Positions 3,584-47,973 of a stretch of DNA of 64,000 nucleotides are shown in pieces. Within the stretch, counting starts at the first letter, position 1; the number at the start of each line of letters is the position of its first letter. The stretch covers positions 47,626 to 111,625 of the forward strand of contig CAZMZF010000001.1 in NCBI GenBank assembly GCA_964570765.1, in the 5' to 3' direction. The notes under the pieces were generated by a model that was given only the letters and a program-made list of their open reading frames with translations, did no database searches and was not told the origin of the DNA. The translations under genes and the position numbers were made by a program. This DNA comes from an uncultured Ignavibacteria bacterium. Its GTDB lineage: Bacteria; Zixibacteria; MSB-5A5; RBG-16-43-9.

Positions 3584-3742
3584 GGCGGAGCACCTTGCTC
3601 CGCAAAAACGTAGATCGTAGAGTCCGACCTTTGTGTCGGACAATGAAAGGTTTATCGTAGCGCCCGTAGGGCAATGCGACCCTGTCCTACGGTGGCTACG
3701 CCAGACGTAGTCTCCGTTATTAGGAAAAGGGTCGCGCTACGA
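3584..3742. repeat. Cluster of REP-like palindromes (GGCGGAGC hairpin, GTCCGAC hairpin, GTAGCGC...GCGCTAC family)
   Basis: Nested palindromes. The last 65 bp (3678-3742) recur at 7725-7789 with one mismatch. Confidence 0.6.
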
Positions 3743-3753
3743 CAAAATATATT

Positions 3754-11052: not shown

Positions 11053-11158
11053 AAAACAGTTCAAAGGTTTAAAGGTTTAAAAGTTTAAAGGTAAAAAAGA
11101 AAATTAAACTGTTTACAATAAGAGTTCTTATCAAGGAAACAAAAGGATAGAAAAAAGT

Positions 11159-23703: not shown

Positions 23704-23917
23704 TTCTCCTCCTTTGATTGTTGAATTGTTTTTCGTAGTGCGACCCTTCAGGGTCGCTTAAGCAAGACTAAAGCCTCGCACTTCTTTTTGAAGTCTACAG
23801 GCTAAAATCCGTAGGGACAACCCTTATGATTGTCCGAAATCGGTAGAACAGACATTCCTGTCTGTTCATCGTAGTCAGACAAGAATGTCTGACTTACCAA
23901 TACCAAGAGCCTATTGC

Positions 23918-29505: not shown

Positions 29506-30033
29506 TCATTTTTCTTCTTCCAACTCCATAATAGGCTCTTCGGTATCGACCATCTGGTTTTCTTTGAAATTTACCTTTTTAACCACTCCATCTAAAGCCG
29601 ATTTTATCTCATGCTCCATCTTCATTGCCTCTACGATTGCCAGGCTCTGTTTCTTTTTTACCTTCTCACCTTCAGAAACTAAAATTTTAAGTATCCGTCC
29701 TGGCATTGGAGCACAGATTAATTGTTTACCTTCAGCTAAACCTGATTCTTCTTCTTTTCTTTTAGCTCGGGTGGCTTCTTTTTCCTGGAGGATGAATTGT
29801 TCACCCTGAATAAATATGAATCTTTTATTCTCACCCTCAGCCATATAAATTGTCTGAATATTTCCATCGATCTCGAAGGATAAGCAGTTTGGAGAGATAA
29901 TTTGACAATCTACCTCCATTTTGTTATTCCTGAAATCTACAGAGTATTTCTCACCCTTTTTCTCTATATGTACTTTATAGATTTTATCCTCTAAGAGGAA
30001 TTCAAATTCCATAGTTATCCACCTATTTCCCAT
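29506..30033 (-). CDS. Biotin carboxyl carrier protein (second set)
   Basis: IVEAMKMEHEI biotinylation motif. Confidence 0.8.
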   Translation of the reverse strand: MGNRWITMEFEFLLEDKIYKVHIEKKGEKYSVDFRNNKMEVDCQIISPNCLSFEIDGNIQTIYMAEGENKRFIFIQGEQFILQEKEATRAKRKEEESGLAEGKQLICAPMPGRILKILVSEGEKVKKKQSLAIVEAMKMEHEIKSALDGVVKKVNFKENQMVDTEEPIMELEEEK

Positions 30034-31511
30034 TTGCCCAGCGAAACCCAGGGGTCAAATCCTGTGGCTTTAACCATCTTGCCCTTCACTGAGGTCTTGT
30101 TCAATGATAGAATAGCTCCAGCTGTTAAAGCAATCTCTTTGAATTTATCTCCGGCTCTTTTATCTTTCCAATCTCCCATATTCTTAGGGATGAAATCGGT
30201 CTGGGTATTACCGGCAGTAAACTCAGGATGGGATAATAAATCTTTAAGATAACCTATCTGGGTTTTAATCCCTAAAATGGCATAATCGGAAAGAGCCTGA
30301 ATTGCCCTTTTCCTGGCAGATTCTCTGTTTTCGCCCCAGCAGATGAGTTTAGCCAGAATTGGGTCATAATGCATAGTTACTTCGATTCCGGAATATAGCC
30401 CTGAGTCATTCCTGATTCCGGGTCCGGAAGGTTCTTTAACAAACAGGATTTTTCCGAAAGAGGGGAGGAAATCATTTTCCGGGTCTTCGGCATAGATCCT
30501 GCATTCGATCGCATGTCCTCTTTGTGAAAGATCCTCCTGCTTGAAAGAAAGTTTTTCACCACTTGCAATTTTTATCTGAGTTTTAACTAAATCCACACCA
30601 GTTACCATTTCAGTAATAGGGTGCTCCACCTGAATGCGTGCATTGACCTCCAGGAAATAGTATTTTCCATTCTCATCTAAGAGAAACTCGACTGTGCCAG
30701 CATTATTATATTTTGCAGTCTGGATTACTTTCACTGCTGTTTTACCCATCTCAGCTCGAAGTTCAGGAGTTAAAGCAGTTGAGGGAGTCTCCTCAATAAT
30801 CTTTTGATGTCTTCTCTGGATGGAACATTCCCTTTCAAAAAGATGAGCTGCATTTCCATAATTATCCGCCAAGATTTGAAACTCGATATGCCTGGGTCTT
30901 TCAATACATTTCTCCAGATAAACCGACTCATCTCCAAAAGCAGACTTTGCCTCTCTCATCCCGGCTTCAATTGAGGATTTTAAATCTTCTTTAGAGCGGA
31001 TAATCCTCATCCCTTTTCCACCACCACCAGCAGAGGCTTTGAGCATCACCGGGTAGCCGATTCTTTCTGCCTGCTCTTCAAATTCCTTAAGATTTCCACC
31101 TTTCATTCTCATCCCGGGGATTATAGGGATTTTCGCCTGGGTCATTGTTTTTCGAGATTCAATTTTATCTCCAACTAATCTTAATGCCTCTGAATTGGGA
31201 CCGATGAAAATGATTTTCTCATCTTCACATCTTTTGGAAAAAAGGTAGTTTTCAGCCAAAAAGCCATAACCCGGATGAATTCCTTCTACTTTAGTCTTTT
31301 TAGTTACCTCGATGATTTTGTCTATATTTAAGTAACTTTCTAAAGGAGGAGCAGGACCTAATAGATAAGCTTCATCTGCTAATTGAACATGTAGAGCTTT
31401 TTTATCCACCTCAGAATATACCGCTACAGTTTCAATCCCTATCTCCCTGCAAGCCCGGATAATCCGAACTGCAATCTCCCCCCGGTTAGCTATTAGTATT
31501 TTTTTGAACAT
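30015..31511 (-). CDS. Biotin carboxylase (second set; methylcrotonyl-CoA carboxylase alpha-like but lacking a fused BCCP)
   Basis: MFKKILIANRGEIAVRIIRAC N-terminus and the ATP-grasp fold pattern. Confidence 0.9.
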   Translation of the reverse strand: MFKKILIANRGEIAVRIIRACREIGIETVAVYSEVDKKALHVQLADEAYLLGPAPPLESYLNIDKIIEVTKKTKVEGIHPGYGFLAENYLFSKRCEDEKIIFIGPNSEALRLVGDKIESRKTMTQAKIPIIPGMRMKGGNLKEFEEQAERIGYPVMLKASAGGGGKGMRIIRSKEDLKSSIEAGMREAKSAFGDESVYLEKCIERPRHIEFQILADNYGNAAHLFERECSIQRRHQKIIEETPSTALTPELRAEMGKTAVKVIQTAKYNNAGTVEFLLDENGKYYFLEVNARIQVEHPITEMVTGVDLVKTQIKIASGEKLSFKQEDLSQRGHAIECRIYAEDPENDFLPSFGKILFVKEPSGPGIRNDSGLYSGIEVTMHYDPILAKLICWGENRESARKRAIQALSDYAILGIKTQIGYLKDLLSHPEFTAGNTQTDFIPKNMGDWKDKRAGDKFKEIALTAGAILSLNKTSVKGKMVKATGFDPWVSLGKWEIGG

Positions 31512-31561: not shown

Positions 31562-32314
31562 TTATATTTTTACATTATATTGTTTAAGGTATTGGTCTTT
31601 AAATTTTAGAAGCTGTTTTCCTAACTTTTCTTTTTCATATGTGAGCTTACTAAAAGCCTCCTCACATTTATTAATTAACTCTTCTTTTATTAAGAAAGTT
31701 TTCTTAAAAATTGTTTTAAGAAGATCTAATGACATCCCAAGAAATCTAGTAAAAAGATACATTGTTAGTGTAGCATCTTTCTCTTGGTAAACAATCCCGT
31801 ATGGCAAAAGATCCATTTCTTGTGATGCGGAAAACACAGCAATAATATTAAGGGTTGCCCCATGTGAGAACCTACAGAGATTTTGATAGTCAGTGTACCC
31901 TTCATTGAAATTAGTATCTTTGAACCTTTTACTGACAGGAAACTTTCTCGCAAATTTCTCTGGGTCTGTAATTACAGAATCAATGTATTGTTGATTTCTT
32001 GAAAAGAAAATAATGTTTGCTATTGACTCCAACCAAGGTCTCAACAAAGACATGGCATCAAAATAAAATCCTGTTTTAATTAAATTATAGATTGCTTTAA
32101 CAGAGTAGAAATTACGATAAAATTGTATAAAGGAATAATTTTCAAATTTAGATGTACTTTTGTTGATTTCTTCCATCAATATCTTTAGAAGCTCTGAGTA
32201 GATATTCATTGCATCTTTATGAATATTCAAACTTTCAGAGAAATTCTCTTCGGTTTGGTTAATTACTTCATTTTCTTGGAAGATCAAGTCATCATAATTT
32301 ATTAACTCAAGCAT
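31562..32314 (-). CDS. Hypothetical protein (very AT-rich ORF inside the carboxylase operon)
   Basis: 250 aa with no recognisable motif. Its GC looks clearly lower than the flanking genes. Confidence 0.4.
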   Translation of the reverse strand: MLELINYDDLIFQENEVINQTEENFSESLNIHKDAMNIYSELLKILMEEINKSTSKFENYSFIQFYRNFYSVKAIYNLIKTGFYFDAMSLLRPWLESIANIIFFSRNQQYIDSVITDPEKFARKFPVSKRFKDTNFNEGYTDYQNLCRFSHGATLNIIAVFSASQEMDLLPYGIVYQEKDATLTMYLFTRFLGMSLDLLKTIFKKTFLIKEELINKCEEAFSKLTYEKEKLGKQLLKFKDQYLKQYNVKI

Positions 32315-32407: not shown

Positions 32408-33196
32408 TTATTGACTCCACTTCGGTTTTCGTTTCTCCAGAAAAGCGTTCATCCCTTCCTGTCCTTCTTCGCTGACTCTCATCTCAGCTATGACTTCAGC
32501 GGTATATCTTTTAAATTCTTCAGGTTTCATCCCTGGAACTTTCTGCAATAAATCTTTGCACATAGCTAAAGCTTTAGGACCTGAGGAAAAGAGCTGTTTT
32601 ATCCTTTCGTTTACTGCTTCATCTAACTTATCTTCTGTAACTACCTGGTTTGCCATACCGAATTGTAAAGCCTTTTGAGCATCTATCCTTTCGCCGGTTA
32701 AAAATAATTCCTTGGCTACTCTTTCACCAACTCTCCGCAATACATAGGGGGAGATACAGGCGGGGACTAAACCTAATTTTACCTCGGATAAGCTGAACTT
32801 AGCCTTTTCTGAGGCAATAACTATGTCACAGACCGCTACCAGTCCTGCTCCACCTCCAATAGCCGCACCATTTACCCTGGCGATAGTTGGCTGAGGAAGG
32901 GTGTACATCAAATAGAAAAGCTCTGCCAACTGCAGAGACTCGTTCAAATTCTCTTCATATGAATAATTGATTACTCTTTTCATCCAGTTCAAATCCGCAC
33001 CCGCACAGAAGGATTGACCGATTCCAGTAAGGACTGCAATTCTGATTTTTTCATCAGTAGAAATATTCTTGAAAACCTCAGACAGCTCTAAAATCATAAC
33101 GTCATTAAAGGCATTATGAACCTCTGGACGGTTCAAAAAAATTCTGGCGATTCGATTTTCGATTTTAAAAGCTATGGTCTGATATTCTAAAGACAT
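32408..33196 (-). CDS. Enoyl-CoA hydratase (methylglutaconyl-CoA hydratase-like)
   Basis: Crotonase fold (ARVNGAAIGGGAGLV) in an MCC-type operon. Confidence 0.8.
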   Translation of the reverse strand: MSLEYQTIAFKIENRIARIFLNRPEVHNAFNDVMILELSEVFKNISTDEKIRIAVLTGIGQSFCAGADLNWMKRVINYSYEENLNESLQLAELFYLMYTLPQPTIARVNGAAIGGGAGLVAVCDIVIASEKAKFSLSEVKLGLVPACISPYVLRRVGERVAKELFLTGERIDAQKALQFGMANQVVTEDKLDEAVNERIKQLFSSGPKALAMCKDLLQKVPGMKPEEFKRYTAEVIAEMRVSEEGQEGMNAFLEKRKPKWSQ

Positions 33197-34900: not shown

Positions 34901-35239
34901 TTTGTATTTCCTTGTTTATCGTAGTGCGACTCTTTCAGGGTCGTGTAGCAGAGGTTTTAGATCTCTGCCGAGCCCTGAAGGCTCGGCTACGCGTCTATTT
35001 TCATGGTTGGGCTACCCAACACATTATACGGCCTGTCCCGAAGGACGACCAAGGTGTAAACGGGCCTGCACGACCATTTTTTCAACATAAGTTTTTTGTG
35101 CGGTAGAATAGACATTCTTGTCTGTTCTTTTATTTGTCAGACAGGAACGTCTGACGTTACGTCTTGTCATTCTGAGGGAGCGTAGCGACCGAAGAATCTG
35201 AAGACTCTTCGCTTTCGCTCAGAGTGACAGTAAAAATAA

Positions 35240-38678: not shown

Positions 38679-38808
38679 TATTTAATTTCTTAGTTTACAT
38701 ATCTACTTTAAGGACAGAACAGTGTTCTGTCCCTACAATCCCCACCTTGTGGGCAAGGTGGGTCTACCAGTTTTTTTGGACAGAATCCACTTGAGATGGG
38801 TCCTGTCC

Positions 38809-39708
38809 CTACAATTCTTGCACAGAGCCCAGTTTCTCGGATGACCCATTCTGGATTGCAGTTTTCAAAATATGCTTTGCCTCAGCAAATCTTCTTTTGT
38901 TGGAGGAAGCGCCTAAAATTACCACGCAGAGTTTTTCTTTTACATTGTTAAGCATTACTGCCAGGCACCAGCCGGATTTACCTATGAAGCCGGTCTTTCC
39001 ACCCAGGATATCAAAATCTTCTCTAAGCAAACGGTTGCTGTTGCCAAGCTGATGGAACCTTTTTCTTTTATTCACCGAGTAAAACTTATATTGCTTAGTA
39101 GTGGTGATCTGTGAGATGAGCGGGTCAGTTAAAGCCATCTTCAGAAGTTTTGCAGTTTCCCAGGCAGTGGAGATGTTATCAGCATTCAAGCCGGTTGGAT
39201 CAGCGAATTGAGTGTTTCCCAGACCTAAGGAGTCAGCTTTCAAGTTCATTCTTTCCACAAATTCCCCCTCTCTCATCCCGGTAGCTCTCACTAAGGCTCG
39301 TGTAGCCCGATTATCTGAAGACATTAAACTGGCGTGCAAGAGATCAATCAGATAAAAAGTCTCTCCCGGACGCAGGCGGGACTTGGCAGAAGCTCTGGCA
39401 TCATCCCGGGTGATACTTATAGTATCGAAAAGGTCAATCCCTGATTCCAGAAGTACCATAGCGGTCATCAATTTGGTCAAGCTGGCAATGGAGCGAACAT
39501 CTTCGCTGTTCATATCGTAAAGCACGGTCTCATTGTCAAGATCCAGAACTAGAGCGGATTTGGCAGTTAGTTTGAATTCTTTCTTCTTTTTGGAAGTTTT
39601 GGTTTTGCTGTAGGCAGGGCTGGTTGAGGAAAAGAGAAATCCTGAAAGAAGGATTAGACTTAAAAGATATATCCCCCACTTAATATTCCAGTCTTTAAAA
39701 TTTCGCAT
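38809..39708 (-). CDS. D-alanyl-D-alanine carboxypeptidase (peptidase S11, serine type)
   Basis: SLTKLMT (SxxK) motif, SDN-like SSDN motif, KTG motif. Signal peptide. Confidence 0.75.
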   Translation of the reverse strand: MRNFKDWNIKWGIYLLSLILLSGFLFSSTSPAYSKTKTSKKKKEFKLTAKSALVLDLDNETVLYDMNSEDVRSIASLTKLMTAMVLLESGIDLFDTISITRDDARASAKSRLRPGETFYLIDLLHASLMSSDNRATRALVRATGMREGEFVERMNLKADSLGLGNTQFADPTGLNADNISTAWETAKLLKMALTDPLISQITTTKQYKFYSVNKRKRFHQLGNSNRLLREDFDILGGKTGFIGKSGWCLAVMLNNVKEKLCVVILGASSNKRRFAEAKHILKTAIQNGSSEKLGSVQEL

Positions 39709-39842: not shown

Positions 39843-40922
39843 TCATTTATTTACACCAGTTTTTACCTTTAAATATTCAAGAGCTTTTAAAAATCTTGAA
39901 GACCCAAACCTGACCGGGTCAGTAGTTGGCAGATTAGTTTCGTCTTCAGTTTTCTCTATCTCATGCCTGGCTTCTTTTTCATTCAAATTTGAGGTGTTCA
40001 GAGCTATGCCTATCATCTTAGATGGTTTCAAAGGTCTGGCTATTTCCTCGTGCAATCTAATATATTCGGATAATGAAGGCAAAAGCAAATCGTAATTATT
40101 GAATTTTTTCTTACCTGGAAAATGACATAAGACCATCGCATCTGGTAATGAGCCATGCAGAAGAGCTAAGGATACTCCGGAATAACCTGGATGGAGAATG
40201 GTTCCCTGTCCTTCCACTAATAGAAGGTCATAGGACTTAGATTTCTGGATCAAAAAATCCTCTATTGCTCCAGCCATAAAATCACCTTTGATAGCATCTA
40301 TGGGAACCCCTTCTCCGGTAATTATCATTCCGGTCTGGCCGGTTGCCACAAAGCAGGGGTTCCAGCCGAACTTTTCTGCCTCTTTTGTCATCTCAAAAGC
40401 GGTAATCATCTTGCCTGACCGGCAATCGGTGCCCACGGTTAAAACTACTTTCGATTTAATCTTCTCCGGTTTATAATCTGCAACTTTGTTATAATTTTTT
40501 GCCTCTCTTAAATCCCAGATTTTAGCCTTCCTGAAATTTGCCAGGGTAGCCAGTTCCGGGTCTTCATTTAACATATCGTGCAATCCATTGAGAATATTTA
40601 GCCCATTTTCAAGTGCAGAGACGATTTCTTTTCTCCACTCCAAAGGTAATTTCCCACCCCGGGGAGCGATACCGATTAAGAGTGAATCTGGTTTATAAGG
40701 CAGGGAGCTTAAAACATCCTTAACCACGGGGATTTTCCCACCCAGACCTAAAATCTCCTGAGCAGTTTTACCTGCCCGGGTCGAATCTATAACCGCCGCC
40801 ACATTCTCCGGCTTATACCTGATTAATCCATAAGCCGTCTTCGCCTCCAGTGCCGTAAAACACCCCTCCGCTAAAATTACGATCCTTCTTTTCCCCTCTC
40901 CCCCTCCCTCTACTAAAAACAT
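39843..40922 (-). CDS. DUF1611-family protein (tentative). Rossmann-like N-terminus
   Basis: The start is placed at MFLVEGGGEGKRR, which has a GGAGG Shine-Dalgarno sequence 4 nt upstream. The ATG lies 16 nt after the stop of the PAPS-reductase-like gene. The family assignment is from memory of the pattern only. Confidence 0.45.
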   Translation of the reverse strand: MFLVEGGGEGKRRIVILAEGCFTALEAKTAYGLIRYKPENVAAVIDSTRAGKTAQEILGLGGKIPVVKDVLSSLPYKPDSLLIGIAPRGGKLPLEWRKEIVSALENGLNILNGLHDMLNEDPELATLANFRKAKIWDLREAKNYNKVADYKPEKIKSKVVLTVGTDCRSGKMITAFEMTKEAEKFGWNPCFVATGQTGMIITGEGVPIDAIKGDFMAGAIEDFLIQKSKSYDLLLVEGQGTILHPGYSGVSLALLHGSLPDAMVLCHFPGKKKFNNYDLLLPSLSEYIRLHEEIARPLKPSKMIGIALNTSNLNEKEARHEIEKTEDETNLPTTDPVRFGSSRFLKALEYLKVKTGVNK

Positions 40923-40938
40923 CTTACCTCCGTGTAGT

Positions 40939-41949
40939 CTACATCCTCTCATTCAAAATTTGTCTTTCCAAATCCCTGAGAGGTATTCTTTGACCATTTT
41001 TGTAAATAAAAGTAAATCCACTTTTATTTCCTTCTTCAAGTTCGACTAATTTATAAAACATATCTCGATTCAAACCATATAATTTCCTGAAATCTGTCTC
41101 AGTTTTATATGCACCACACCAGCATTCTGTTGATGATCCGAGGGAATGTAATAAAGTCTTAGGTAACCCGTTACTATTTATTAACGAAGTTACTTGTAGG
41201 TCAGACCAATAAAAAATAGGACTAACAGAAAGACACTTGAAACTTGGGTGATACCATATCGGTATATATTGTTTTCTTACATTGGATTCAGCTGCTCTTA
41301 TCCCGTCAAAAACAACTTTTGGTTCTTTTACGCTATCTAGATATTCTTCAATAGGCTTAATTTTTAGCTCCCGACAACACCATCTATATCCAAAACTTGG
41401 AATACCCCATTCTTTTGCTAAAGTAAAATAATCCACTTTCGGTCTCACTATTTTAAGATTAATTTTCAAATGTTTGCAGACCTTCTTTACATATTTGGTA
41501 TTCTCAGGAAGCCCTGCTGTTGTGTCAACATATAGTGCAGTTAAGTCGTTATTGGCTGTTTTTGCAATGTCTTTCAGATAAGCTAAAGTGGCAAGACTAT
41601 CTTTCCCACCACTAAACAGCACAAACGACTTTTTTGTCTCCAATAGTTTTCTAATATCACTTTCAAATATGGAAACTTTTCCTCTGATATTTTTAGACTG
41701 TTCTTCGCTAAGTTCACATACTTTTCTTACTTTTCTCCATTTTATATGAAAAATATAAATGGGTTTTAATGCTGGACCTTTAATCCATCTGGTGACAACT
41801 AAACCTTTTTCTCTACAGAGGGGGCAAATGACTTTAAGGCTTTTCAAACTAAACCCACTAAAAGCCTCTTCAGTCCTTTTCCACCATTGTTTGGGAAAAT
41901 CATTTCCCTGATCTGGATTAAAATTTTGAAAGTTGTAGAATTGTTTCAT
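40939..41949 (-). CDS. PAPS-reductase-like PP-loop ATP pyrophosphatase domain protein with an ~110-aa N-terminal extension
   Basis: SGGKDS PP-loop (VLFSGGKDSLATL), WCCRELKIKP and ECWCG motifs characteristic of the PAPS reductase / DndC / SspD / IbrA superfamily. Confidence 0.75.
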   Translation of the reverse strand: MKQFYNFQNFNPDQGNDFPKQWWKRTEEAFSGFSLKSLKVICPLCREKGLVVTRWIKGPALKPIYIFHIKWRKVRKVCELSEEQSKNIRGKVSIFESDIRKLLETKKSFVLFSGGKDSLATLAYLKDIAKTANNDLTALYVDTTAGLPENTKYVKKVCKHLKINLKIVRPKVDYFTLAKEWGIPSFGYRWCCRELKIKPIEEYLDSVKEPKVVFDGIRAAESNVRKQYIPIWYHPSFKCLSVSPIFYWSDLQVTSLINSNGLPKTLLHSLGSSTECWCGAYKTETDFRKLYGLNRDMFYKLVELEEGNKSGFTFIYKNGQRIPLRDLERQILNERM

Positions 41950-41950
41950 G

Positions 41951-42559
41951 TTATTTTATCTTTTTTATCAACTCGACGAACTTTATAAAAGACTCTATGT
42001 TAGGAATATCAATCGAGCCATCCTCGTTAACTCTGTAAAGATAAAAGAAATTTGTATATCCTGCTTCCTTTAATCCTTTTTCTATCACTTTTGCGCGAGA
42101 CGTGCTTTTCGCGAAACAACACTCAGCAAAATACCACACTTCAGGTACAAACTTTTGGAGGCCAGAACAATATGCCTTATCATCTTTAGATACATAGCTT
42201 ATGTTACTGCGAACTTGAATAACTACCCTCGCTTGTTCTTTGTCAACCAAAACAAATCTCATAGATTTATTATTGTAAGTTTTACATCCAGGTTTGCCTT
42301 CATATATGATTATATCATTTTCATTTGATAGTGCGTTGCCAGTTTTTTTGTTTATAATCTGCCCCCAATCAGCTCTGTATCCATTTGGCAAATATTTATC
42401 AATTACTTCAATGATATTAGTTGAAAGTATAAGACCTTTTACAAAATCATGAATAGTAGGATTTCCAAAATTAGGAGTTGACAATGAATAGGGAGTAGCT
42501 TTACTAATTAACTCCTTCAACTCGCCTGCTATAGCATCAATATATCTCGAGTGTTTCAC
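41951..42559 (-). CDS. Hypothetical protein, possible degenerate PD-(D/E)xK-like motif
   Basis: 202 aa. NDIIIYEGK resembles a D...ExK nuclease motif but is very short. Otherwise unrecognised. Confidence 0.35.
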   Translation of the reverse strand: MKHSRYIDAIAGELKELISKATPYSLSTPNFGNPTIHDFVKGLILSTNIIEVIDKYLPNGYRADWGQIINKKTGNALSNENDIIIYEGKPGCKTYNNKSMRFVLVDKEQARVVIQVRSNISYVSKDDKAYCSGLQKFVPEVWYFAECCFAKSTSRAKVIEKGLKEAGYTNFFYLYRVNEDGSIDIPNIESFIKFVELIKKIK

Positions 42560-43257
42560 TACTTAGGCTCCTGCATATATTCACGCACTAAAGCATTACC
42601 TAATTTTGCTAGAGGGACTTTCAGTTCTTTTGATTTAGTTCTCATCGCAAACAATCCCTCTTTTAAAACTTTAATTATAACTACCCGACCATTTAATTCT
42701 AAAGAGACAATATATTTCGCAGGTACAACTCTGTTAAAAAAAGACTTTATAGTTTTTTGTATATCTTTGTTTTTGATTATCTTTTGGAGATTCTCAAATA
42801 TATCCTTTTCAATACCAAGGTAAGCCACGTAGATTTTTTTGACTTTGGATTTAAGGACTTTATTAATAACTTTATTGATAGGCATTTTGGAATTAACTAT
42901 TTTATACTTTACAATTGCCCTCACATCTTCTGAAGGAATGTTTTTACTCGCAATTTCTTTCGCGAATACGATTTGATCTTTTTCTCTCAGTTTTGAGATT
43001 CTGTAGCAAATATCAACACCTCTAATTAAATCCCTCTTAATCAGTTCTTTAACTTTTACATTCAATTCTGTTATTTTTAAAAATTGCCTTACCATTTCAG
43101 GAGAAAGTCTTACAACTTTCGCCACCTCATCTAGCGATTTATGGATATCGTATAGAAATTTCATCTCCTCAGCAACTTCAAGAAGGTTTATATCTCGTTT
43201 TTTTCTTTTTGTCCCCTTTCCAATTTTCGCTAATGATTTAAGATTCATTTCATCCAT
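42559..43257 (-). CDS. Hypothetical HTH protein resembling the central DNA-binding region of ParB/KorB
   Basis: SLDEVAKVVRLSPEMVRQFL helix-turn-helix-like segment. There is a 1-nt start/stop overlap with both neighbouring genes. Confidence 0.4.
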   Translation of the reverse strand: MDEMNLKSLAKIGKGTKRKKRDINLLEVAEEMKFLYDIHKSLDEVAKVVRLSPEMVRQFLKITELNVKVKELIKRDLIRGVDICYRISKLREKDQIVFAKEIASKNIPSEDVRAIVKYKIVNSKMPINKVINKVLKSKVKKIYVAYLGIEKDIFENLQKIIKNKDIQKTIKSFFNRVVPAKYIVSLELNGRVVIIKVLKEGLFAMRTKSKELKVPLAKLGNALVREYMQEPK

Positions 43258-44087
43258 TACTTATAAAAACCCTTATTGCTCAGCCAGTCTTCTATTGCTT
43301 TTCTAGCAATTTCCTCACGACTTAACCCAATTTCTTTTACCGCATTATCTAATGCCATCAGTAGCGGAGGGGATAAAGGAACCACTATCTTTTCTTCTGT
43401 ATATGTACTTTTAGCTTTTTTTATTAATTCGTCTGTTTTAATCTCTGGCGAACTCTTTTTGATCTCAACTGTTCTTATCCTCTCTGGTGGAGTAAGTTTT
43501 GCAAATTCTTTTGCCAATTTGATCATGTCTTCCTTGTTTTTCGGAGCAAGTTCCATAATTCTTTTTACATCTTGTTTACCAATTTCCTTTTTATAATACA
43601 TTTCTTTTACTTCTTGAGGTGCAGTGTCAATTTTCAGATATTCATAAATATATCCTGGTGGTTTCCCTAAAATTTTGGATAACTTTTTAACTGATTTTTC
43701 ATATTTCTTATATAGGTATGCTATAGCTTTTACAATATCTTCCCTATGTAATTCAACTCTGTGGATATTTTCACTCAAAGATAATATTTTCGCACTTTCC
43801 TCATCAGGTTTCTTCGTTAAAACAATTGCGAGAATTTTATTAAAGTCAGAGTATCCTCTTTTTCTTAATTCTTTAAATGCAAGTAATCTCCGTTGACCTA
43901 TAATTAAATTGTACCTATCGCCCTCACGAAAAACCACAATTGGTTGTAGTAATTTATATTTCAATATACTATCAGCAAGTTCTTCCATTTTCTTTTGTCT
44001 ATCTAAGGTCCTTACATTCCATTTGTCAATATTTGCTAAATTAACTTTATCGATTGATATTTTTTGAATATCTCTGTCGTCTGCCAT
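43257..44087 (-). CDS. ParB N-terminal domain (ParB/Srx fold) protein
   Basis: LLQPIVVFREGDRYNLIIGQRRLLAFKEL matches the ParB box with the GxRR arginine motif. Downstream SENIHRVELHREDIVKAI resembles ParB box III. Confidence 0.75.
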   Translation of the reverse strand: MADDRDIQKISIDKVNLANIDKWNVRTLDRQKKMEELADSILKYKLLQPIVVFREGDRYNLIIGQRRLLAFKELRKRGYSDFNKILAIVLTKKPDEESAKILSLSENIHRVELHREDIVKAIAYLYKKYEKSVKKLSKILGKPPGYIYEYLKIDTAPQEVKEMYYKKEIGKQDVKRIMELAPKNKEDMIKLAKEFAKLTPPERIRTVEIKKSSPEIKTDELIKKAKSTYTEEKIVVPLSPPLLMALDNAVKEIGLSREEIARKAIEDWLSNKGFYK

Positions 44088-44266
44088 TTTAATAACTCCT
44101 TTATTCTAAAAAAATTAATGCCATTATTCTCTTTGTTCCAATATGTATTTATGTATGTTTTTTTGAAGCTTCAATGGTGTTTACAGATTTAATTTTTAAA
44201 TAAATTACTCGTTTCGAAAAATTTTTTAGTAATTTAACTATATCTGTCTCTTCCTGCAACAATTAT

Positions 44267-44863
44267 TTATCTCAAAACCCCTAAAAAATCACCCAAGAGA
44301 AACTGAGCTCTGCCGATCAGGAGGGTGACTCGGGACATTACGGTGTAACCAAAGGTAGCTCCGAAGAAGACCATCATAAAGAAAACCCCGATTTTGGCTG
44401 AAGTGCCCAGAACTCCTTTATGCTCCCTGGAAAAGAAAAAGTAGCTCAGGGTGGTAATCACGGCTAAGGCAACGATGATATTATTGACTGAAGCATATGA
44501 GCCCATTGAGGCTTTCATCTGGGTGTAAATCTGCGCCTGCATCACTGCAGGAATGGAAACTCCTGCTCCTGCGCCTATTATTAAAGCCATTGAAATTCGT
44601 GAAAGCCAGGAAAGTTTCGGTAAAAAGCGGAGGAACATAAAGATGCCTAATATTCCAGGAATGAGATAGAGAAGATCGCCTTCTCTGAAAATCGGGTAGT
44701 AAAGCTTGGGCAGAACAATAGTTTTGATCGAGATAACGATGAGATACCCAACGGAGATACCGACCAAAAGATACTCGGCGAATTTATAAAAGGGGTTATC
44801 CTTATAGAGAAAAGAAAAGATAAACAAGGTTAAAATTACTGCGATTAAAGTGCCTGAGTCCAA
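44267..44863 (-). CDS. Integral membrane protein (about 6 TM), unknown function
   Basis: Hydrophobicity pattern only. Confidence 0.5.
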   Translation of the reverse strand: MDSGTLIAVILTLFIFSFLYKDNPFYKFAEYLLVGISVGYLIVISIKTIVLPKLYYPIFREGDLLYLIPGILGIFMFLRFLPKLSWLSRISMALIIGAGAGVSIPAVMQAQIYTQMKASMGSYASVNNIIVALAVITTLSYFFFSREHKGVLGTSAKIGVFFMMVFFGATFGYTVMSRVTLLIGRAQFLLGDFLGVLR

Positions 44864-45011
44864 ATTGTCTTACTCCTTTCTGTCATTCTGAGGGACTCCG
44901 CTTTTGGTGAGACGACCGAAGAATCTAATTTAGCGGATAGATTCTTCCCCCGCCAAAAGCGGGGTCAGAATGACATTGATTTGCTACAAGCTACTTGCTA
45001 CATGCTTCAAG

Positions 45012-45815
45012 CTATTTTTTCCTCTTCTCTATCCAGTATCCTATATTCCCCAAGATCACCAAAATTATAATCAGAAGATGAGCTATGGATTGGGCATCCA
45101 TACCTCTTGCGCCCATACCAGGTTGACCCAGCAAAATCTCATATTCTGCAGCTCCTTTGAGTCCATTGACCAGTCCCTGGATCTGTCCGGAATTTAAAAA
45201 AGGATAAAAACTGGTTGCCATAACTGCAGTCGTTAAAACAAACAATTTTTTTTCATATCTTGCCACTGCATAATTTATCCAGGAAAAAGGTATATCCCCG
45301 TCAGTAACTGAGATTATAAGAGCTATCTTTTTATAATCTTTTATCTCTTTAGTCAGTTCCAGATCAAAAGTTGAATTACCAGTATAATCCTCAGGAAAGA
45401 CCTGATGGAAATCCTCTCCCAATCCTAAGATGGTAGCAGTAACCTGTGGTCTGAATCCCAAGAAAACATAATCTTTCCCATAGGTTTTATTATGTTTTAA
45501 AGCGTTTTCCTTTAAGACCTTTTCTCCTAAAGCGGTCCCTTCAGCTAAAAGGGAAAGACCTATAGCTTTCAGATTTTTTGAAAAAGAGTGTTGTAAAATT
45601 GCATTGGCTAAAGGCTGGACCTCTGGAAAAGATGAGGCTTCAAAATCAAAGGAGATTAAAACCACTGAGCTGTCTTCTAAATTATTTATTTTCTCAAATA
45701 CATTTTTGACCTCTGGAGTTACCTTATTCGGCAGGCTTAGTTTAAAAATCAGAGGGAAGATTACCGCTACTGCCATCAGGATGAATATCGTTTTTCGGTT
45801 AAAATTTAGTTTCAT
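45012..45815 (-). CDS. Membrane-anchored protein (N- and C-terminal TM helices), unknown function
   Basis: Hydrophobic N- and C-termini. Confidence 0.5.
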   Translation of the reverse strand: MKLNFNRKTIFILMAVAVIFPLIFKLSLPNKVTPEVKNVFEKINNLEDSSVVLISFDFEASSFPEVQPLANAILQHSFSKNLKAIGLSLLAEGTALGEKVLKENALKHNKTYGKDYVFLGFRPQVTATILGLGEDFHQVFPEDYTGNSTFDLELTKEIKDYKKIALIISVTDGDIPFSWINYAVARYEKKLFVLTTAVMATSFYPFLNSGQIQGLVNGLKGAAEYEILLGQPGMGARGMDAQSIAHLLIIILVILGNIGYWIEKRKK

Positions 45816-46101
45816 ATTCTCTTTTGGTGGAACAGATATCCTGTCACTTCTTATTATCAGACAGGAATGTCTGACCTACCACTTTTTTGGACCCACCTTG
45901 GGGGCAAGGTGGGTCTACCGATTTAAGGATAGAATTCACCGAAGGTGGATTCTGTCCCTCCAACCAGTTTCGTCGGGCGTGAAGCCCGACGCTACGAGCA
46001 TTCACTCTTTCACCATCGGATCAGTCCGCTTGAGGTGGACGACGGACACATAACTCCATATTTTTGCTACAAGCTCCTTGCTACGTGCTACCTGCTTAAA
46101 T

Positions 46102-46722
46102 TCATCCTTTACCCAAATAGGTTCTCTCGATTCCAACAATTATCCTTAAAGATGTGGCTATAGAGCCCAGACCGATTCCGATTAAAATCCCTCTTCTGGC
46201 AGCCATACTGGGGATATTCAGTACCCAGGTTGCAGATTGAGGTATAGATGAATGAATCATCTCTCCTATGGGGACTCGGCCTAAGATGACTAAAATCCCA
46301 GCAATCAGAAGGATGGTTGCCTGTATATTTCTTGCCCTGAAACCTCGATAAGCGGCTGAGGCAACAAAAAAAGCTAAAAGTGAAAACATAGTTGACTGCA
46401 TTGGGACCTGGAGATTATCGAAAATCCATAAAAAAGGCGAGCCCTTCTGAATTCCCTTCCAGAAGCCAAAAAATACCATAATAAGAAGTCCGACTATGGC
46501 AACTGAGTTATATCCCCAACCCTTTTGTTTCTTAGATATTTTTTCCAGATGGAGAAGTAAAAAACTTAAAGCGCCGACCAAGAGTGCAAAAACGTAGATT
46601 ATCTGCATCCAGTCTAAAACATTTTGATAACCTTTTAGAAAAAGAGGATGGGGCACAAAAAACTGTGCCAGCATAAATGCCCCAAAACCAAAACATACCC
46701 AGAGAGGTATCTGCCTGCTCAT
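46102..46722 (-). CDS. Integral membrane protein, unknown function
   Basis: Multiple TM helices. Confidence 0.5.
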   Translation of the reverse strand: MSRQIPLWVCFGFGAFMLAQFFVPHPLFLKGYQNVLDWMQIIYVFALLVGALSFLLLHLEKISKKQKGWGYNSVAIVGLLIMVFFGFWKGIQKGSPFLWIFDNLQVPMQSTMFSLLAFFVASAAYRGFRARNIQATILLIAGILVILGRVPIGEMIHSSIPQSATWVLNIPSMAARRGILIGIGLGSIATSLRIIVGIERTYLGKG

Positions 46723-46726
46723 CTCC

Positions 46727-47512
46727 TTATCCTTTTCCTAAAAAATTGATCAAGAAATTATAACCGAGGGTGGATAAAATCCCACCGGCGACTATAAGAA
46801 ATCCTATGATTAATTTCAAAAAGTCCTGCCCTTTAATGCTTCCCAGAACTAAAGGGTCTTTAGTTAAATAGCCACTGGCGGCAAAAAGCTCCTCGCCTAT
46901 CAAAGTGTAGTCGCAGGCAACAATAAAAAAGGAAAGCTGAATAGTAGAATCTGTGCCTGCAATCTGCAAAGCGCCAATGGAGTTTCCGGTCTCAGCTAAG
47001 ATCAGAGATTCAGCTTCAAAGGTCCCTAAGAAAAGATTAGTAGCCGGTCTTTCTCTTAACATAATTCCATCCACTGCGGCTACATATCCAAACTGGCTCT
47101 GGGTTACAAAGTAGATGTTTTCCTTTTTGTATGATTCTGGATGTCCCGTACGGGTAAAACTCTCTTTAACTACTTCCTGGGCAACAGTTGTTACCATCGG
47201 GTCGTAGTTCGGGATTAGAAGAGGAGTGTTATACTCAGCTATTTTCTCCGCTACGCTCCCCAGGATATTCATCGAAGCCATGGTTGCCACCCTTTCCATT
47301 TTTCCCAGACCAGAAGAAAAAAGAATGGGCTTACCCATTTCCGTAGCCCTGCCAACTGCCTCATCTAAAGCCTCAAGCCCGGGAATGGAACGAATCTTCA
47401 GGCTTTTTCCTTTTTTAGCATAAAGGATAAACCCGAAGATAAAAATTAAGGTAACGATTATCCCGATTAAAAGATTTATTTTCTGCGGGTCAAACCAGCT
47501 TTCTTTTTTCAA
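46727..47512 (-). CDS. Membrane protein with a large extracytoplasmic domain, unknown function
   Basis: N-terminal and C-terminal TM helices. Separated by 4 bp from the gene at 46102-46722. Confidence 0.5.
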   Translation of the reverse strand: MKKESWFDPQKINLLIGIIVTLIFIFGFILYAKKGKSLKIRSIPGLEALDEAVGRATEMGKPILFSSGLGKMERVATMASMNILGSVAEKIAEYNTPLLIPNYDPMVTTVAQEVVKESFTRTGHPESYKKENIYFVTQSQFGYVAAVDGIMLRERPATNLFLGTFEAESLILAETGNSIGALQIAGTDSTIQLSFFIVACDYTLIGEELFAASGYLTKDPLVLGSIKGQDFLKLIIGFLIVAGGILSTLGYNFLINFLGKG

Positions 47513-47973
47513 AGCAAAAGCTGAGGAGTTAAAGCTAAATATTATAACAAGAAGAAGAATTAAGTGACGGATTTTCCTCTTCAGGTTAATCCTCCTTGAT
47601 AAGTTTTTAAGTAAAGTAGAAAATAAAATTTCTTTGTCAAGGGAAATTAAAATTTGAAGTAAATCATATAGACCCGCCTTGGGGGCGAGGTGGGTTTACC
47701 GAGTTGACAATTGCTCAGTTTATCAAGTAAAAGCCTGCCCAATGAATTGGGTAACAATATTTATAAATTCATTTTGTCTACCCTACGGGGGCAAGCTCCG
47801 GATCCATTTCTCGGACGAGGAGAGGGGGAAGATCCACTTTTTACTTGACAATTTAATTTGATTATTCTATATATTTTCTGGTTAGAGAAGATAGGGAGCA
47901 AAAAACCGTTTAACATTTTTCCCCGCCTTTGGCGGGATCCCGCTTAAAGCGGGAAAACCAACAGGAGGGTGGT

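What the first reader, a model, noticed from the sequence alone, without database searches (positions are those of the whole stretch)
40920..44087. Low-GC, translationally coupled ParB-like / HTH / hypothetical / PAPS-reductase-like operon: candidate undescribed DNA-modification or defence module
Four minus-strand genes are packed with 1-nt start/stop overlaps or a 1-nt gap: 43257-44087, 42559-43257, 41951-42559 and 40939-41949.

Seen directly in the sequence:
- A ParB N-terminal domain with the GxRR arginine motif.
- A protein resembling the ParB HTH core.
- An unrecognisable 202-aa protein with a weak D...ExK-like motif.
- A PP-loop SGGKDS PAPS-reductase-like enzyme, with CCxxxKxxP and ECWCG motifs and a novel ~110-aa N-terminal extension.
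- The GC of the operon looks much lower than that of the flanking catabolic genes, which suggests horizontal acquisition.

From established knowledge, ParB-fold proteins paired with PAPS-reductase-like ATP pyrophosphatases recur in DNA-backbone or base modification and defence contexts: DndB/DndC, SspB/SspD, IbrB/IbrA and BrxP. This cluster has no DndD/SspC-type ATPase, no cysteine desulfurase and no DUF3440, and it has two extra unknown genes. It therefore does not match any described architecture that I know.

A DUF1611-like gene starts 16 nt after the PAPS-reductase stop, with its Shine-Dalgarno sequence inside the upstream ORF. It may be co-transcribed.
Basis: partly seen in the sequence, partly recalled or inferred. 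Interest (0 to 1): 0.85.

Follow-up and report, generated by a model that had tools for sequence, protein, structure and literature searches.

The report
Methylase-free ParB–nuclease–PAPS-reductase defence cassette
This is a horizontally spread four-gene cassette that looks like a restriction-modification system with no methyltransferase: a highly conserved sulfur-enzyme-like "writer" paired with a swappable trio of two ParB-type DNA-binding proteins and a small nuclease. It appears to be undescribed and untested.

Summary
Four tightly coupled minus-strand genes (40939-44087) form the lowest-GC stretch of the window (0.326 against 0.400).

They encode:
- a CTPase-type ParB;
- a ParB paralogue that lacks the CTPase domain;
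- a NucC-fold DUF6602 nuclease, so this protein is recognisable;
- a PAPS-reductase-family PP-loop enzyme with an N-terminal zinc ribbon and APS-reductase-like CC...CxC cysteines.

The same gene order recurs in 87 complete cassettes (65 non-redundant) from at least eight bacterial groups and three archaeal lineages. It is always a sharply bounded four-gene unit, often beside R-M, toxin-antitoxin or STAND genes. It never has parA or an internal methyltransferase.

The cassette has two modules. The PAPS-reductase is constant. ParB, HTH2 and the nuclease are exchanged as a block between a DUF6602 type and an AlwI-catalytic-domain type. This happens even at the window's own chromosomal site, where close relatives keep a 91-93% identical PAPS-reductase with the other trio. 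A third allele keeps only the PAPS-reductase.

Best reading (confidence about 0.5): a DNA-marking writer, probably inserting sulfur, plus an exchangeable reader/nuclease module, analogous to Dnd, Ssp, Tdp and BREX-4. It fails the membership tests for Dnd, Ssp and BREX-4. Tdp could be compared only by gene content, which differs. No description was found. DUF1611 is a host neighbour, not part of the cassette.

The parts
44088..44266 (-). AT-rich leader (GC 0.22) upstream of ParB; presumed promoter/operator region and upstream edge of the exchangeable block
   Evidence: Sequence; GC. Homology to the sister alleles ends at 44198-44231. No significant promoter, terminator or operator repeat was found.
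43257..44087 (-). ParB: CTPase-type ParB N domain (QPIVV 43932-43946; GQRR 43887-43898; SENIHR 43758-43775), ParB HTH, and a C-terminal ribbon-helix-helix-like domain (43266-43388)
   Evidence: Pfam and NCBIfam. Aligns to CTP-binding Noc/ParB structures 7ng0, 4umk and 6sdk. Motifs conserved in all cassette ParBs, with Q/S/H in place of the Glu of GERR. C-terminal domain homologous to that of HTH2.
42559..43257 (-). HTH2: ParB paralogue without the CTPase domain. Basic N-terminal peptide (GTKRKKR 43195-43215), ParB-type HTH (about 43078-43107), C-terminal RHH-like domain (42574-42684)
   Evidence: HTH_ParB 8e-5; alignment; hhalign of C-terminal domains against ParB gives probability 95-96%, E 2e-8 to 4e-9.
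41951..42559 (-). Small PD-(D/E)xK nuclease of the DUF6602/NucC fold. E80-x-D82 at 42305-42322, Q115-x-R117 at 42206-42220, invariant E146 at 42119-42127. No separate DNA-recognition domain identified
   Evidence: Pfam DUF6602, PADLOC PD_DExK and NucC. AF2 model pLDDT 84.7. Foldseek NucC E 2e-8, TM about 0.6. Motif alignment to NucC. Invariant residues.
40939..41949 (-). Constant 'writer': PAPS-reductase-family PP-loop ATP pyrophosphatase. N-terminal zinc ribbon (C42/C45/H68/C78, about 41716-41826), PP-loop SGGKDS (41596-41613), FDGIRAAES (41284-41310), RWCCRELK (41362-41385), ECWCG (41113-41127)
   Evidence: PAPS_reduct 9e-24. PADLOC SspD 4e-20, BrxP 5e-16, DndC 4e-8. Invariant columns. The CC aligns with the CC of APS reductase 2goy. 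Fold nearest to TtuA, LarE and PAPS reductase.
41893..44197 (-). Exchangeable block (ParB + HTH2 + nuclease + first ~20-40 codons of the PAPS-reductase). Replaced by an unrelated AlwI-type trio in sister genomes at the same locus
   Evidence: blastn against L028 and L029: flanks 88-92% identical, no DNA similarity between window 44198/44218 and 41832/41892. Same breakpoints against L052.

Best explanation
This is a self-contained, horizontally transferred, methyltransferase-free cassette of the restriction-modification kind, built from two modules.

Module 1, the constant writer, is the PAPS-reductase-family PP-loop enzyme. I infer that its zinc ribbon holds DNA, that it uses ATP to adenylate an oxygen on DNA, and that it replaces that oxygen with sulfur delivered through its probable [4Fe-4S]/cysteine site. 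A backbone phosphorothioate is the most likely product, as made by DndC, SspD, BrxP and TdpC. A thio-base is the alternative.

- a ParB-type NTP-gated DNA clamp with an HTH and an RHH domain;
- its paralogue that lacks the CTPase domain;
- a small PD-(D/E)xK nuclease with no DNA-recognition domain of its own.

I infer that ParB and HTH2 load on DNA, sense whether the mark is present, and license the nuclease (NucC-like here, AlwI-catalytic-domain-like in the sister allele) to cut unmarked, foreign DNA.

Shown here: the gene content, motifs and folds; the conserved order; the very wide and patchy phyletic spread; the low GC; the defence-island neighbours; the block exchange of the trio against a constant writer; and the existence of writer-only alleles.

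Inferred: that DNA is the substrate, that sulfur is the mark, which proteins read it, and the direction of discrimination.
For: 1. Conserved unit. The order ParB-HTH2-nuclease-PAPS-reductase holds in 51 of 54 metagenome loci with at least 2.7 kb upstream and in all informative genome loci. In total there are 87 complete cassettes, 65 non-redundant. Two nuclease-anchored look-ups also returned the full cassette.

2. Horizontal transfer.
- Hosts are Aminicenantes, Planctomycetota, WOR-3, Bacteroidota, Armatimonadota, Verrucomicrobiota, Thermodesulfobacteriota and Zixibacteria, plus Promethearchaeota, Methanophagales and Woesearchaeota.
- Identity between domains reaches up to 71%.
- Only about 19 of 185,579 species representatives carry it.
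- The cassette is AT-richer than its flanks in 12 of 13 loci.

3. Context. The cassette has sharp edges between unrelated housekeeping genes, and often lies next to other defence genes:
- MTase-Mrr and Abi_C (L001);
- an MmeI-type R-M, Abi_C, integrase and NERD (L002);
- EcoRV with MTases (L033);
- PemK and HicAB (L032);
- NACHT (L119);
- MwoI and a full AlwI R-M (L120).
It never has parA or an internal methyltransferase.

4. Two modules.
- Median identity, same versus different nuclease type: PAPS-reductase 63.6 vs 60.9%, ParB 59.4 vs 30.6%, HTH2 53.8 vs 27.1%.
- In 12 of 65 cassettes the nearest PAPS-reductase neighbour carries the other trio.
- At the window's own locus the trio is replaced as a block, with breakpoints in the leader and 60-120 nt inside the PAPS-reductase gene.

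5. Writer-only alleles exist. They make up 3 of 54 loci. L052, at the same chromosomal site, keeps every motif intact. This is what is expected if the writer works alone and an orphan 'M' is harmless.

6. Writer chemistry.
- It has a PP-loop, and its nearest defence profiles are SspD, BrxP and DndC.
- Its CC aligns with the CC pair of APS reductase 2goy, which from my own knowledge ligates that enzyme's [4Fe-4S] cluster.
- Its fold is closest to the [4Fe-4S] thiolase TtuA.
- PAPS-reductase-domain proteins are the established phosphorothioate-installing enzymes in dnd, ssp and brx, and tdpC alone is reported to suffice for PT synthesis (PMC12914056).

7. Effector.
- The nuclease has the NucC fold.
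- A DUF6602 protein, 'Damona', is reported among the integron-cassette anti-phage systems (bioRxiv 2024.07.02.601686).
- The AlwI-type protein matches only positions 345-415 of the 441-position RE_AlwI profile.
- Neither nuclease therefore has a recognisable DNA-recognition domain.

8. Precedents for ParB-fold proteins working with DNA-modification or restriction machinery: DpdB (PMC12839542), a ParB that activates phage T-dioxygenases (PMC13229309), and DndB and SspE.
Against: - There is no experimental datum for any member. All hosts are uncultured.
- No cysteine desulfurase or other sulfur donor is encoded in the cassette. A housekeeping IscS/SufS or free sulfide would have to serve.
- The writer is the last gene and is translationally coupled behind the nuclease. 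That is an awkward order for establishing protection in a new host.
- The nuclease motif is non-canonical. Gln replaces the Glu of ExK, and in the window protein Arg replaces the Lys, so activity is not guaranteed.
- The PAPS-reductase model is only moderate (pLDDT 68.7) and its cysteine loops are disordered. The Fe-S assignment rests on motif alignment.
- Co-variation of ParB and HTH2 with the nuclease would equally fit a toxin-antitoxin-like relationship.
- Every collection scan was anchored on the PAPS-reductase. Trios without a writer could therefore have been missed, apart from two look-ups and the matching contig lengths.
Confidence: 0.5

Rival explanations
1. Single-complex model. ParB and HTH2 are the sequence-targeting and loading subunits of the PAPS-reductase, as DpdB is for DpdA or the phage ParB is for its T-dioxygenase. 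All four proteins would form one machine that either modifies or cuts, as in Type I/III R-M or BREX. There would be no separable writer and reader.
For: All four genes are tightly translationally coupled. ParB-fold proteins are experimentally required partners of DNA-modifying enzymes (PMC13229309; DpdB). Neither nuclease type has its own recognition domain.
Against: The PAPS-reductase stays 91-93% identical while ParB and HTH2 drop to 26-30% identity, so a specific interface would have to survive that. An intact PAPS-reductase persists without any ParB or HTH2 at the same locus (L052) and in L102/L118. The enzyme carries its own conserved zinc-ribbon extension.
Confidence: 0.2
2. Abortive-infection or toxin-antitoxin-like module with no DNA marking. 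The nuclease is a toxin held in check by ParB and HTH2. The PP-loop enzyme acts as a sensor, or as an ATP-consuming or small-molecule-making component, rather than as a DNA modifier.
For: NucC, the closest fold, is an allosterically gated abortive-infection effector (role from my own knowledge). ParB and HTH2 co-vary strictly with the nuclease, as an antitoxin would. The DUF6602 protein Damona is reported as a single-gene defence system.
Against: This does not explain why a PAPS-reductase with DNA-enzyme relatives (SspD, BrxP, DndC) is the most conserved and invariably present partner. It does not explain the retention of writer-only alleles with all catalytic motifs. No cyclase or other signal generator is present.
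Confidence: 0.12
3. Selfish or mobile-element function. The cassette is an addiction, anti-restriction or maintenance module of an unrecognised mobile element. ParB and HTH2 would act in partition or regulation, and the PAPS-reductase would modify the element's own DNA to evade host restriction.
For: Distribution is extremely patchy across domains, and GC is low. Many hits lie on contigs of about 4 kb. Distant relatives of the enzyme occur in phages, archaeal viruses and plasmids, sometimes coupled to DNA methyltransferases.
Against: The cassette family itself is absent from IMG/VR, INPHARED phages and PLSDB plasmids. The best match there is 36% identity over 74% of the query. It is chromosomal, lies between housekeeping genes, and has no adjacent integrase, transposase, replication gene or parA in most loci. 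No flanking repeats were found. It is stably held at one site across lineages with 77-92% DNA identity.
Confidence: 0.08
4. Ordinary housekeeping. The genes are a chromosomal ParB partition protein plus an assimilatory PAPS/APS reductase or a tRNA thiolase that happen to be adjacent.
For: ParB passes the generic TIGR00180 domain model. The PP-loop enzyme shares the fold of PAPS reductase and TtuA.
Against: All housekeeping equivalog models are far below cut-off. There is no parA. Only about 19 of 185,579 species carry it. It is foreign in GC. Neighbours are variable. A nuclease is always embedded.
Confidence: 0.02

Closest known systems
Ssp system (SspABCD with SspE or SspFGH)
   Same: The writer is a PAPS-reductase-family PP-loop enzyme, and SspD is the best PADLOC match (4e-20). 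The restriction partner SspE combines a ParB-fold (DUF262) NTPase with a nuclease. The ParB + nuclease trio here looks like a split analogue of that. Modification and restriction modules are separable.
   Different: There is no SspA desulfurase, SspB nickase (DUF4007) or SspC ATPase. The ParB is the CTPase/partition type (TIGR00180), not DUF262. The nuclease is PD-(D/E)xK, not HNH/DUF1524. The enzyme has an extra zinc ribbon. The SspD match is weak: 70.6 bits over 217 profile positions.
Tdp system (TdpABC; An et al. 2025, Nat Chem Biol, cited in PMC12914056)
   Same: It is reported that a single gene (tdpC) suffices for phosphorothioate synthesis via an adenylated DNA intermediate, with a separate restriction pair (TdpAB). 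That is the same writer-plus-reader logic proposed here, and it could explain the writer-only alleles.
   Different: No Tdp-named chain is detectable by sequence in the PDB copy. The cassette has no hexameric translocase-type ATPase. Its restriction module would be ParB + HTH + nuclease.
Dnd system (DndABCDE with DndFGH, PbeABCD or DndI)
   Same: It has a PAPS-reductase-family Fe-S enzyme (DndC) with a ParB-superfamily protein (DndB). A constant modification module pairs with alternative restriction modules (PMC10853773).
   Different: The DndC equivalog model scores 21.7 bits against a 290.4 cut-off. There is no DndD or DndE. DndB is a DGQHR/DUF262-type ParB and a non-essential regulator.
BREX type 4 (brxPCZL)
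   Same: BrxP has a PAPS-reductase domain and was shown to be needed for phosphorothioate synthesis (PMC12914056). PADLOC BrxP matches at 5e-16.
   Different: The match covers only BrxP positions 132-286 of 779. There is no DUF4007, BrxC, PglZ or BrxL.
IbrA/IbrB-type ParB + PAPS-reductase gene pairs of prophages and viruses
   Same: A ParB-like gene lies next to a PAPS-reductase-like gene on horizontally moving DNA.
   Different: No DUF3440 domain was detected. IbrAB pairs have no second ParB paralogue and no obligatory nuclease. Their function is unknown too.
NucC (CBASS / type III CRISPR effector) and Damona (DUF6602 single-gene defence)
   Same: The slot-3 nuclease shares the NucC fold (E 2e-8, TM about 0.6) and belongs to Pfam DUF6602, as Damona does.
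   Different: There is no cyclic-oligonucleotide synthase. The active-site motif is D...QxK/R instead of D...ExK. It is always embedded between HTH2 and the PAPS-reductase.
ParB-dependent DNA modification (DpdA/DpdB; phage 5mYOX-ParB)
   Same: A ParB-fold NTPase is genetically and functionally tied to a DNA-modifying enzyme.
   Different: The chemistry differs (7-deazaguanine insertion, thymine oxidation). Those ParBs lack an HTH or act as activators. Here ParB travels with the nuclease, not with the enzyme.

Membership tests
Dnd phosphorothioation system | DndC equivalog (TIGR03183, cut-off 290.4 bits) | tested here: not met
   21.7 bits, E 8e-5, partial match. PADLOC DndC models 16-31 bits.
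Dnd phosphorothioation system | DndD ABC ATPase and DndE encoded with DndC | tested here: not met
   No such genes in the cassette, in the window or in any of 87 complete cassettes. The cassette is exactly four genes.
Ssp phosphorothioation system | SspD-type PAPS-reductase enzyme | tested here: inconclusive
   PADLOC SspD is the best defence-profile match, but it is weak (70.6 bits, E 4e-20, profile positions 5-221 of 277) and PADLOC has no curated cut-off.
Ssp phosphorothioation system | SspB (DUF4007 nickase) and SspC (ORC/Cdc6-type ATPase) adjacent | tested here: not met
   Absent from the window cassette and from all annotated loci.
BREX type 4 | BrxP (PAPS reductase fused to DUF4007) with BrxC, PglZ and BrxL | tested here: not met
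   Only BrxP profile positions 132-286 of 779 match. No PglZ, BrxC or BrxL neighbours.
Tdp phosphorothioation system | TdpC writer homology; TdpA/TdpB restriction pair | not testable with these tools
   The paper is not held. No Tdp sequence or profile was available. No Tdp-named chain was found in the PDB searches. The gene content differs: no translocase ATPase.
IbrA/IbrB | PAPS-reductase domain followed by DUF3440 | tested here: not met
   No DUF3440 hit at E <= 0.1.
ParABS partition system | ParB/RepB/Spo0J domain (TIGR00180) | tested here: met
   78.3 bits against a 58.45 cut-off. Aligns to CTP-bound Noc/ParB structures.
ParABS partition system | Adjacent parA ATPase; chromosomal origin or plasmid context | tested here: not met
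   No ParA/CbiA-type gene beside the cassette in the window or in 11 Pfam-annotated contexts. The Noc equivalog scores 74.6 against a 315 cut-off.
Assimilatory PAPS/APS reductase (CysH) | Equivalog or subfamily score above cut-off | tested here: not met
   PRK02090 scores 50.9 against 154, TIGR00434 37 against 165, TIGR02055 32.4 against 235.
Classical Type II restriction-modification | Cognate DNA methyltransferase in the unit | tested here: not met
   No methyltransferase domain in any of the four proteins or inside any cassette.
Classical Type II restriction-modification | Restriction endonuclease of a known REase family | tested here: inconclusive
   The sister-allele slot-3 protein matches RE_AlwI above the gathering score, but only at profile positions 345-415 of 441. 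The window protein is DUF6602/NucC-like.
CBASS / NucC effector systems | NucC-fold nuclease with a CD-NTase or other cA3 source | tested here: not met
   The fold is met, but no cyclase is present in the cassette or conserved nearby.

The most novel reading that the evidence does not exclude
This is a fifth, previously unrecognised DNA sulfur-modification (or other PP-loop-driven DNA-marking) immunity system. A stand-alone zinc-ribbon PAPS-reductase writes the mark. A ParB-CTPase-fold clamp with its CTPase-less paralogue acts as the mark reader that gates a recruited, non-specific PD-(D/E)xK nuclease. That would be the first case of a partition-type ParB clamp used for self/non-self discrimination.
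Probability: 0.3. Interest if true: 0.85.

Novelty: new variant of a known kind. Interest (0 to 1): 0.72.

Why it matters
Four phosphorothioate systems are established: dnd, ssp, tdp and BREX-4. Each uses a different machine around a PAPS-reductase-type enzyme.

This cassette would add a compact four-gene architecture in which the partner is a partition-type ParB clamp plus a minimal nuclease. It could extend the known uses of the ParB-CTPase fold to immune discrimination.

The natural swap of the trio against a nearly identical writer at one chromosomal site is a ready-made genetic experiment. It shows which parts are interchangeable.

The cassette spans bacteria and archaea, including Asgard and ANME relatives, living in anoxic sediments. 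It may therefore shape gene flow in communities that cannot yet be cultured.

At about 3.2 kb it is small enough to synthesise and test directly. If it is active, the writer could serve as a tool for site-specific DNA marking.

Tried and rejected
- Housekeeping sulfate assimilation or tRNA thiolation: rejected on NCBIfam cut-offs and variable context.
- Chromosome or plasmid partition: rejected because there is no parA and a nuclease is always embedded.
- DUF1611 as a fifth member: rejected. It has host GC of 0.426. It is present only in the window's lineage, whichever trio allele is there. It is absent beside the cassette elsewhere.
- Small plasmid or repeat element, suggested by the many ~4-kb contigs: not supported. 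Those contigs are linear fragments carrying the same four genes, and long contigs show single chromosomal copies.
- Flanking direct repeats or att sites: only chance-level AT-rich matches.
- Operator or parS-like palindromes in the leader: nothing above AT-rich noise.
- Promoter and terminator scan: no enrichment, and no terminator before DUF1611.
- Presence on viruses, phages or plasmids: the family is absent. Only relatives at 36% identity or less were found, and their neighbourhoods were uninformative.
- Literature: no description under DUF6602, PAPS reductase + ParB, COG0175/COG1475, PF01507/PF02195, IbrA/IbrB, ParB-CTPase fold, tdp, or PP-loop/ParB/REase. Makarova 2011 and An 2025 are not held.
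- 8xMP literature search: only irrelevant hits.
- A look-up of the window's own record failed because the exact product is not indexed.

Full report
**Observation**

- ParB and HTH2 overlap by one base (TAATG).
- HTH2 and the nuclease overlap by one base (TAGTG).
- One base separates the nuclease stop from the PAPS-reductase ATG.
- The DUF1611 ATG at 40922 follows 16 nt later, behind a GGAGG.

A 179-bp leader with GC 0.22 precedes ParB. The cassette (GC 0.326, GC3 0.25-0.29) is the lowest-GC 3.1-kb stretch in the whole 64-kb window. The window mean is 0.400 with sd 0.023, and only 3 of 609 sliding windows are as low, all of them overlapping the cassette.

**What the four proteins are**

*ParB (276 aa).* It has a ParB_N domain and a ParB HTH, and passes the TIGR00180 domain model.
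- It aligns to the CTP-binding clamps Noc and ParB, with QPIVV, G-Q-R-R-x-x-A and S-E-N-x-x-R in register.
- Every cassette ParB keeps G-x-R-R and E-N-x-x-R, but has Q, S or H where canonical ParBs have the Glu of GERR.
- That Glu is described as a CTP-hydrolysis residue in PMC13229309. I therefore infer an NTP-binding clamp that hydrolyses slowly or not at all.
- Its C-terminus is a strand-helix-helix domain.

*HTH2 (232 aa).* It has only the ParB-type HTH.
- Its C-terminal ~45 residues are homologous to those of ParB (hhalign probability 95-96%, E 2e-8 to 4e-9).
- It is therefore a ParB paralogue in which the CTPase domain is replaced by a short basic peptide.

*The 202-aa protein.* It is recognisable.
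- It matches Pfam DUF6602, PADLOC PD_DExK and NucC.
- A confident model (pLDDT 84.7) matches NucC structures at E 2e-8 and TM about 0.6.
- NucC's catalytic D and E-x-K align with D82 and Q115-x-R117.
- E80, D82 and E146 are invariant in the family.
- The active site is thus a variant. This is a caveat.

*The PAPS-reductase-like enzyme (336 aa).* It scores 9e-24 against PAPS_reduct.
- Its best defence-profile matches are SspD (4e-20), BrxP (5e-16) and DndC (4e-8).
- All housekeeping models fall far below their cut-offs.
- Eighteen homologues share invariant C42-x2-C45...H68...C78 in the N-terminal extension, S113-G-G-x-D-S, R-W-C191-C192-R-E-L-K, C239 and E-C276-W-C278-G.
- The CC pair aligns exactly with the CC of P. 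aeruginosa APS reductase (2goy). From my own knowledge, that pair is half of its [4Fe-4S] site. Cluster-free PAPS reductase has no Cys at that position in the same output.
- The AF2 model is moderate (pLDDT 68.7), with the Cys loops disordered.
- Its nearest solved folds are the [4Fe-4S] tRNA thiolase TtuA, LarE and PAPS reductases.

**A conserved, mobile unit**

Homologues of the enzyme at 63-93% identity occur in Zixibacteria, Thermodesulfobacteriota, Planctomycetota and WOR-3. A scan of 185,579 species representatives found the family in only about 19. These span Aminicenantes, Planctomycetota, Bacteroidota, WOR-3, Armatimonadota and Verrucomicrobiota. The archaeal hits are Promethearchaeota, Methanophagales and Woesearchaeota, at up to 71% identity to the bacterial query.

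An exhaustive profile search of 1.84 billion cluster representatives found only 36 with E <= 1e-30, few of them full length. The family is small.

In every genome locus with enough upstream sequence the order is ParB-HTH2-X-PAPS-reductase. Among 54 metagenome loci with at least 2.7 kb upstream:
- 28 have the AlwI-type X;
- 23 have the DUF6602-type X;
- 3 have the enzyme alone.

Two look-ups anchored on the nuclease also returned the full cassette. The 83 close nuclease homologues lie largely on contigs whose lengths match those of the enzyme hits.

The cassette is AT-richer than its flanks in 12 of 13 loci. It is absent from IMG/VR, INPHARED phages and PLSDB plasmids, where only relatives at 36% identity or less appear.

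**Context**

The four genes sit, with sharp edges, between unrelated housekeeping genes such as recA-alaS, thiamine, isoprenoid and ABC-transporter genes. They frequently lie next to other defence genes:
- an MTase-Mrr fusion and Abi_C (L001);
- an MmeI-type R-M, Abi_C, an integrase and NERD (L002);
- EcoRV with two MTases (L033);
- PemK and HicAB (L032);
- a NACHT/STAND protein (L119);
- MwoI and a full-length AlwI R-M with two MTases (L120).

No locus has parA, and none has a methyltransferase inside the cassette.

**Two modules**

The closest relatives of the window (flanks 88-92% identical at the DNA level) carry the cassette at the same chromosomal site. That site lies between the 198-aa membrane-protein gene and the DUF1611 and Peptidase_S11 genes. 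Their first three genes, however, are the AlwI type.

DNA similarity stops in the leader (window 44198-44218) and resumes 60-120 nt inside the PAPS-reductase gene (41832-41892). So ParB, HTH2 and the nuclease were replaced as a block, while the enzyme stayed 91-93% identical.

Across 65 non-redundant cassettes:

| Protein | Median identity, same nuclease type | Median identity, different type |
|---|---|---|
| PAPS-reductase | 63.6% | 60.9% |
| ParB | 59.4% | 30.6% |
| HTH2 | 53.8% | 27.1% |

In 12 of 65 cases the nearest enzyme neighbour carries the other trio. One independent pair has enzymes 93.4% identical.

A third allele at the same site (L052, about 77-81% DNA identity) has an intact enzyme with all motifs. 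In place of the trio it carries a small membrane-protein gene.

The AlwI-type slot-3 protein matches only positions 345-415 of the 441-position RE_AlwI profile. Together with the NucC fold of the DUF6602 type, this means neither nuclease has an identifiable DNA-recognition domain.

**Mechanism (inference)**

The pattern is a constant enzyme, an exchangeable DNA-binding-plus-nuclease block, and harmless enzyme-only alleles. This is the pattern of modification-based immunity. There, one modification module pairs with alternative restriction modules, as documented for Dnd (PMC10853773) and for the ssp, tdp and brx systems (PMC12914056).

I therefore propose the following.
- The PAPS-reductase-like enzyme marks host DNA on its own. 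It adenylates a DNA oxygen with ATP and substitutes sulfur through its Fe-S/cysteine site.
- ParB and HTH2, possibly dimerising through their shared C-terminal domain, load on DNA and read the mark.
- They then license the recruited nuclease on unmarked DNA.

All identified hosts belong to lineages known (from my own knowledge) mainly from anoxic sediments and groundwater. That would suit an oxygen-sensitive Fe-S enzyme and free sulfide as the sulfur donor. The sample habitats themselves were not checked.

The precedents for ParB-fold proteins working with DNA-modification or restriction machinery are DpdB, the phage T-dioxygenase ParB, DndB and SspE.

The main weaknesses are:
- there are no experimental data;
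- no sulfur donor is encoded;
- the writer is the last gene of the operon;
- the nuclease active site is non-canonical;
- my scans were anchored on the writer.

The rivals are a single integrated complex, a toxin-antitoxin-like or abortive module without DNA marking, and a selfish-element function. They are listed separately with the results that would decide between them.

**Comparison with known systems**

The cassette works most like the phosphorothioate systems, but it is not a member of Dnd, Ssp or BREX-4.
- DndC scores 21.7 bits against a 290.4 cut-off.
- There is no DndD/DndE, SspB/SspC, or BrxC/PglZ/BrxL.
- The BrxP match is confined to the PAPS-reductase domain.

Its reported gene content differs.

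It is also not an IbrAB pair, since there is no DUF3440. It is not a ParABS system, since there is no parA. It is not a classical R-M, since there is no methyltransferase. It is not a CBASS module, since there is no cyclase.

Ten full-text searches, and the PADLOC 2.0 and NCBIfam 20.0 libraries, gave no name for it. From memory, ParB-PAPS-reductase adjacency has been noted before in comparative-genomics work that I could not retrieve. The novelty claim is therefore limited to the four-gene, two-module architecture.

**Verdict**

The added results are the family-wide synteny, the exchangeable trio against a constant writer, the writer-only alleles, the NucC fold and the Fe-S-type cysteines. Together they turn a single-locus curiosity into a well-defined candidate defence system.

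I rate it a new variant of a known kind (modification-based immunity with a PAPS-reductase-type writer), with interest 0.72.

Noticed in passing
L033 10025-10429; L001 ~11109-11486 (same contig as L012); L052 4199-4609; L073 ~3548-3721; L095 ~3720-3914: A ~135-aa '8xMP' small membrane-protein gene (PF24838, 5e-9) directly abuts the PAPS-reductase gene in at least five independent loci. In L052 it sits where the ParB-HTH2-nuclease trio would be. It may be an accessory or alternative partner of the writer. It is not present in the window, and no literature was found.
   Followed up: partly
L120/L121 1996-4174 and 7682-12609; L065/L066 5500-7296: In one lineage the cassette is sandwiched between classical R-M genes. 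Upstream are an N6_N4 MTase and an MwoI-like gene. Downstream are an HATPase_c_3 protein and a full-length 595-598-aa RE_AlwI with two N6_N4 MTases. So a genuine AlwI-family Type IIS system lies beside a DUF6602-type cassette.
   Followed up: partly
window 45823-45962, 38741-38813, 23842-23899, 47671-47705, 35102-35155: A REP-like intergenic repeat with a GC-rich palindromic core (CCCACCTTGKGGGCAAGGTGGGTCTACC) recurs at several intergenic sites of the window. It also occurs in the related contigs L028, L029 and L052.
   Followed up: partly
window 31562-32314 (-): A lone low-GC (about 0.31-0.33) 250-aa ORF of unknown function is wedged between a biotin-carboxylase gene (30015-31511) and an enoyl-CoA hydratase gene (32408-33196). 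It is probably another acquired gene.
   Followed up: no
L026 6811-8660: A distant 254-aa relative of the enzyme keeps RWCCRELK but has no zinc ribbon. It is translationally coupled to a Dcm-type cytosine-5 DNA methyltransferase. A Deinococcus plasmid hit shows the same adjacency. This suggests that the wider clade is tied to DNA modification.
   Followed up: partly
window 39843-40922 (-): The DUF1611 protein scores 264 bits against the NCBIfam DgcN (N-acetyltransferase) equivalog, below its 480 cut-off. It is a conserved host neighbour of the cassette site, together with a Peptidase_S11 D-Ala-D-Ala carboxypeptidase.
   Followed up: partly
window 44267-47512 (-): A conserved run of four membrane-protein genes lies upstream of the cassette site (198, 267, 206 and 261 aa). 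The 198-aa and 267-aa proteins have no Pfam match. One of the run is annotated DUF6754 in the related contigs. The run is syntenic in all three allele types.
   Followed up: no
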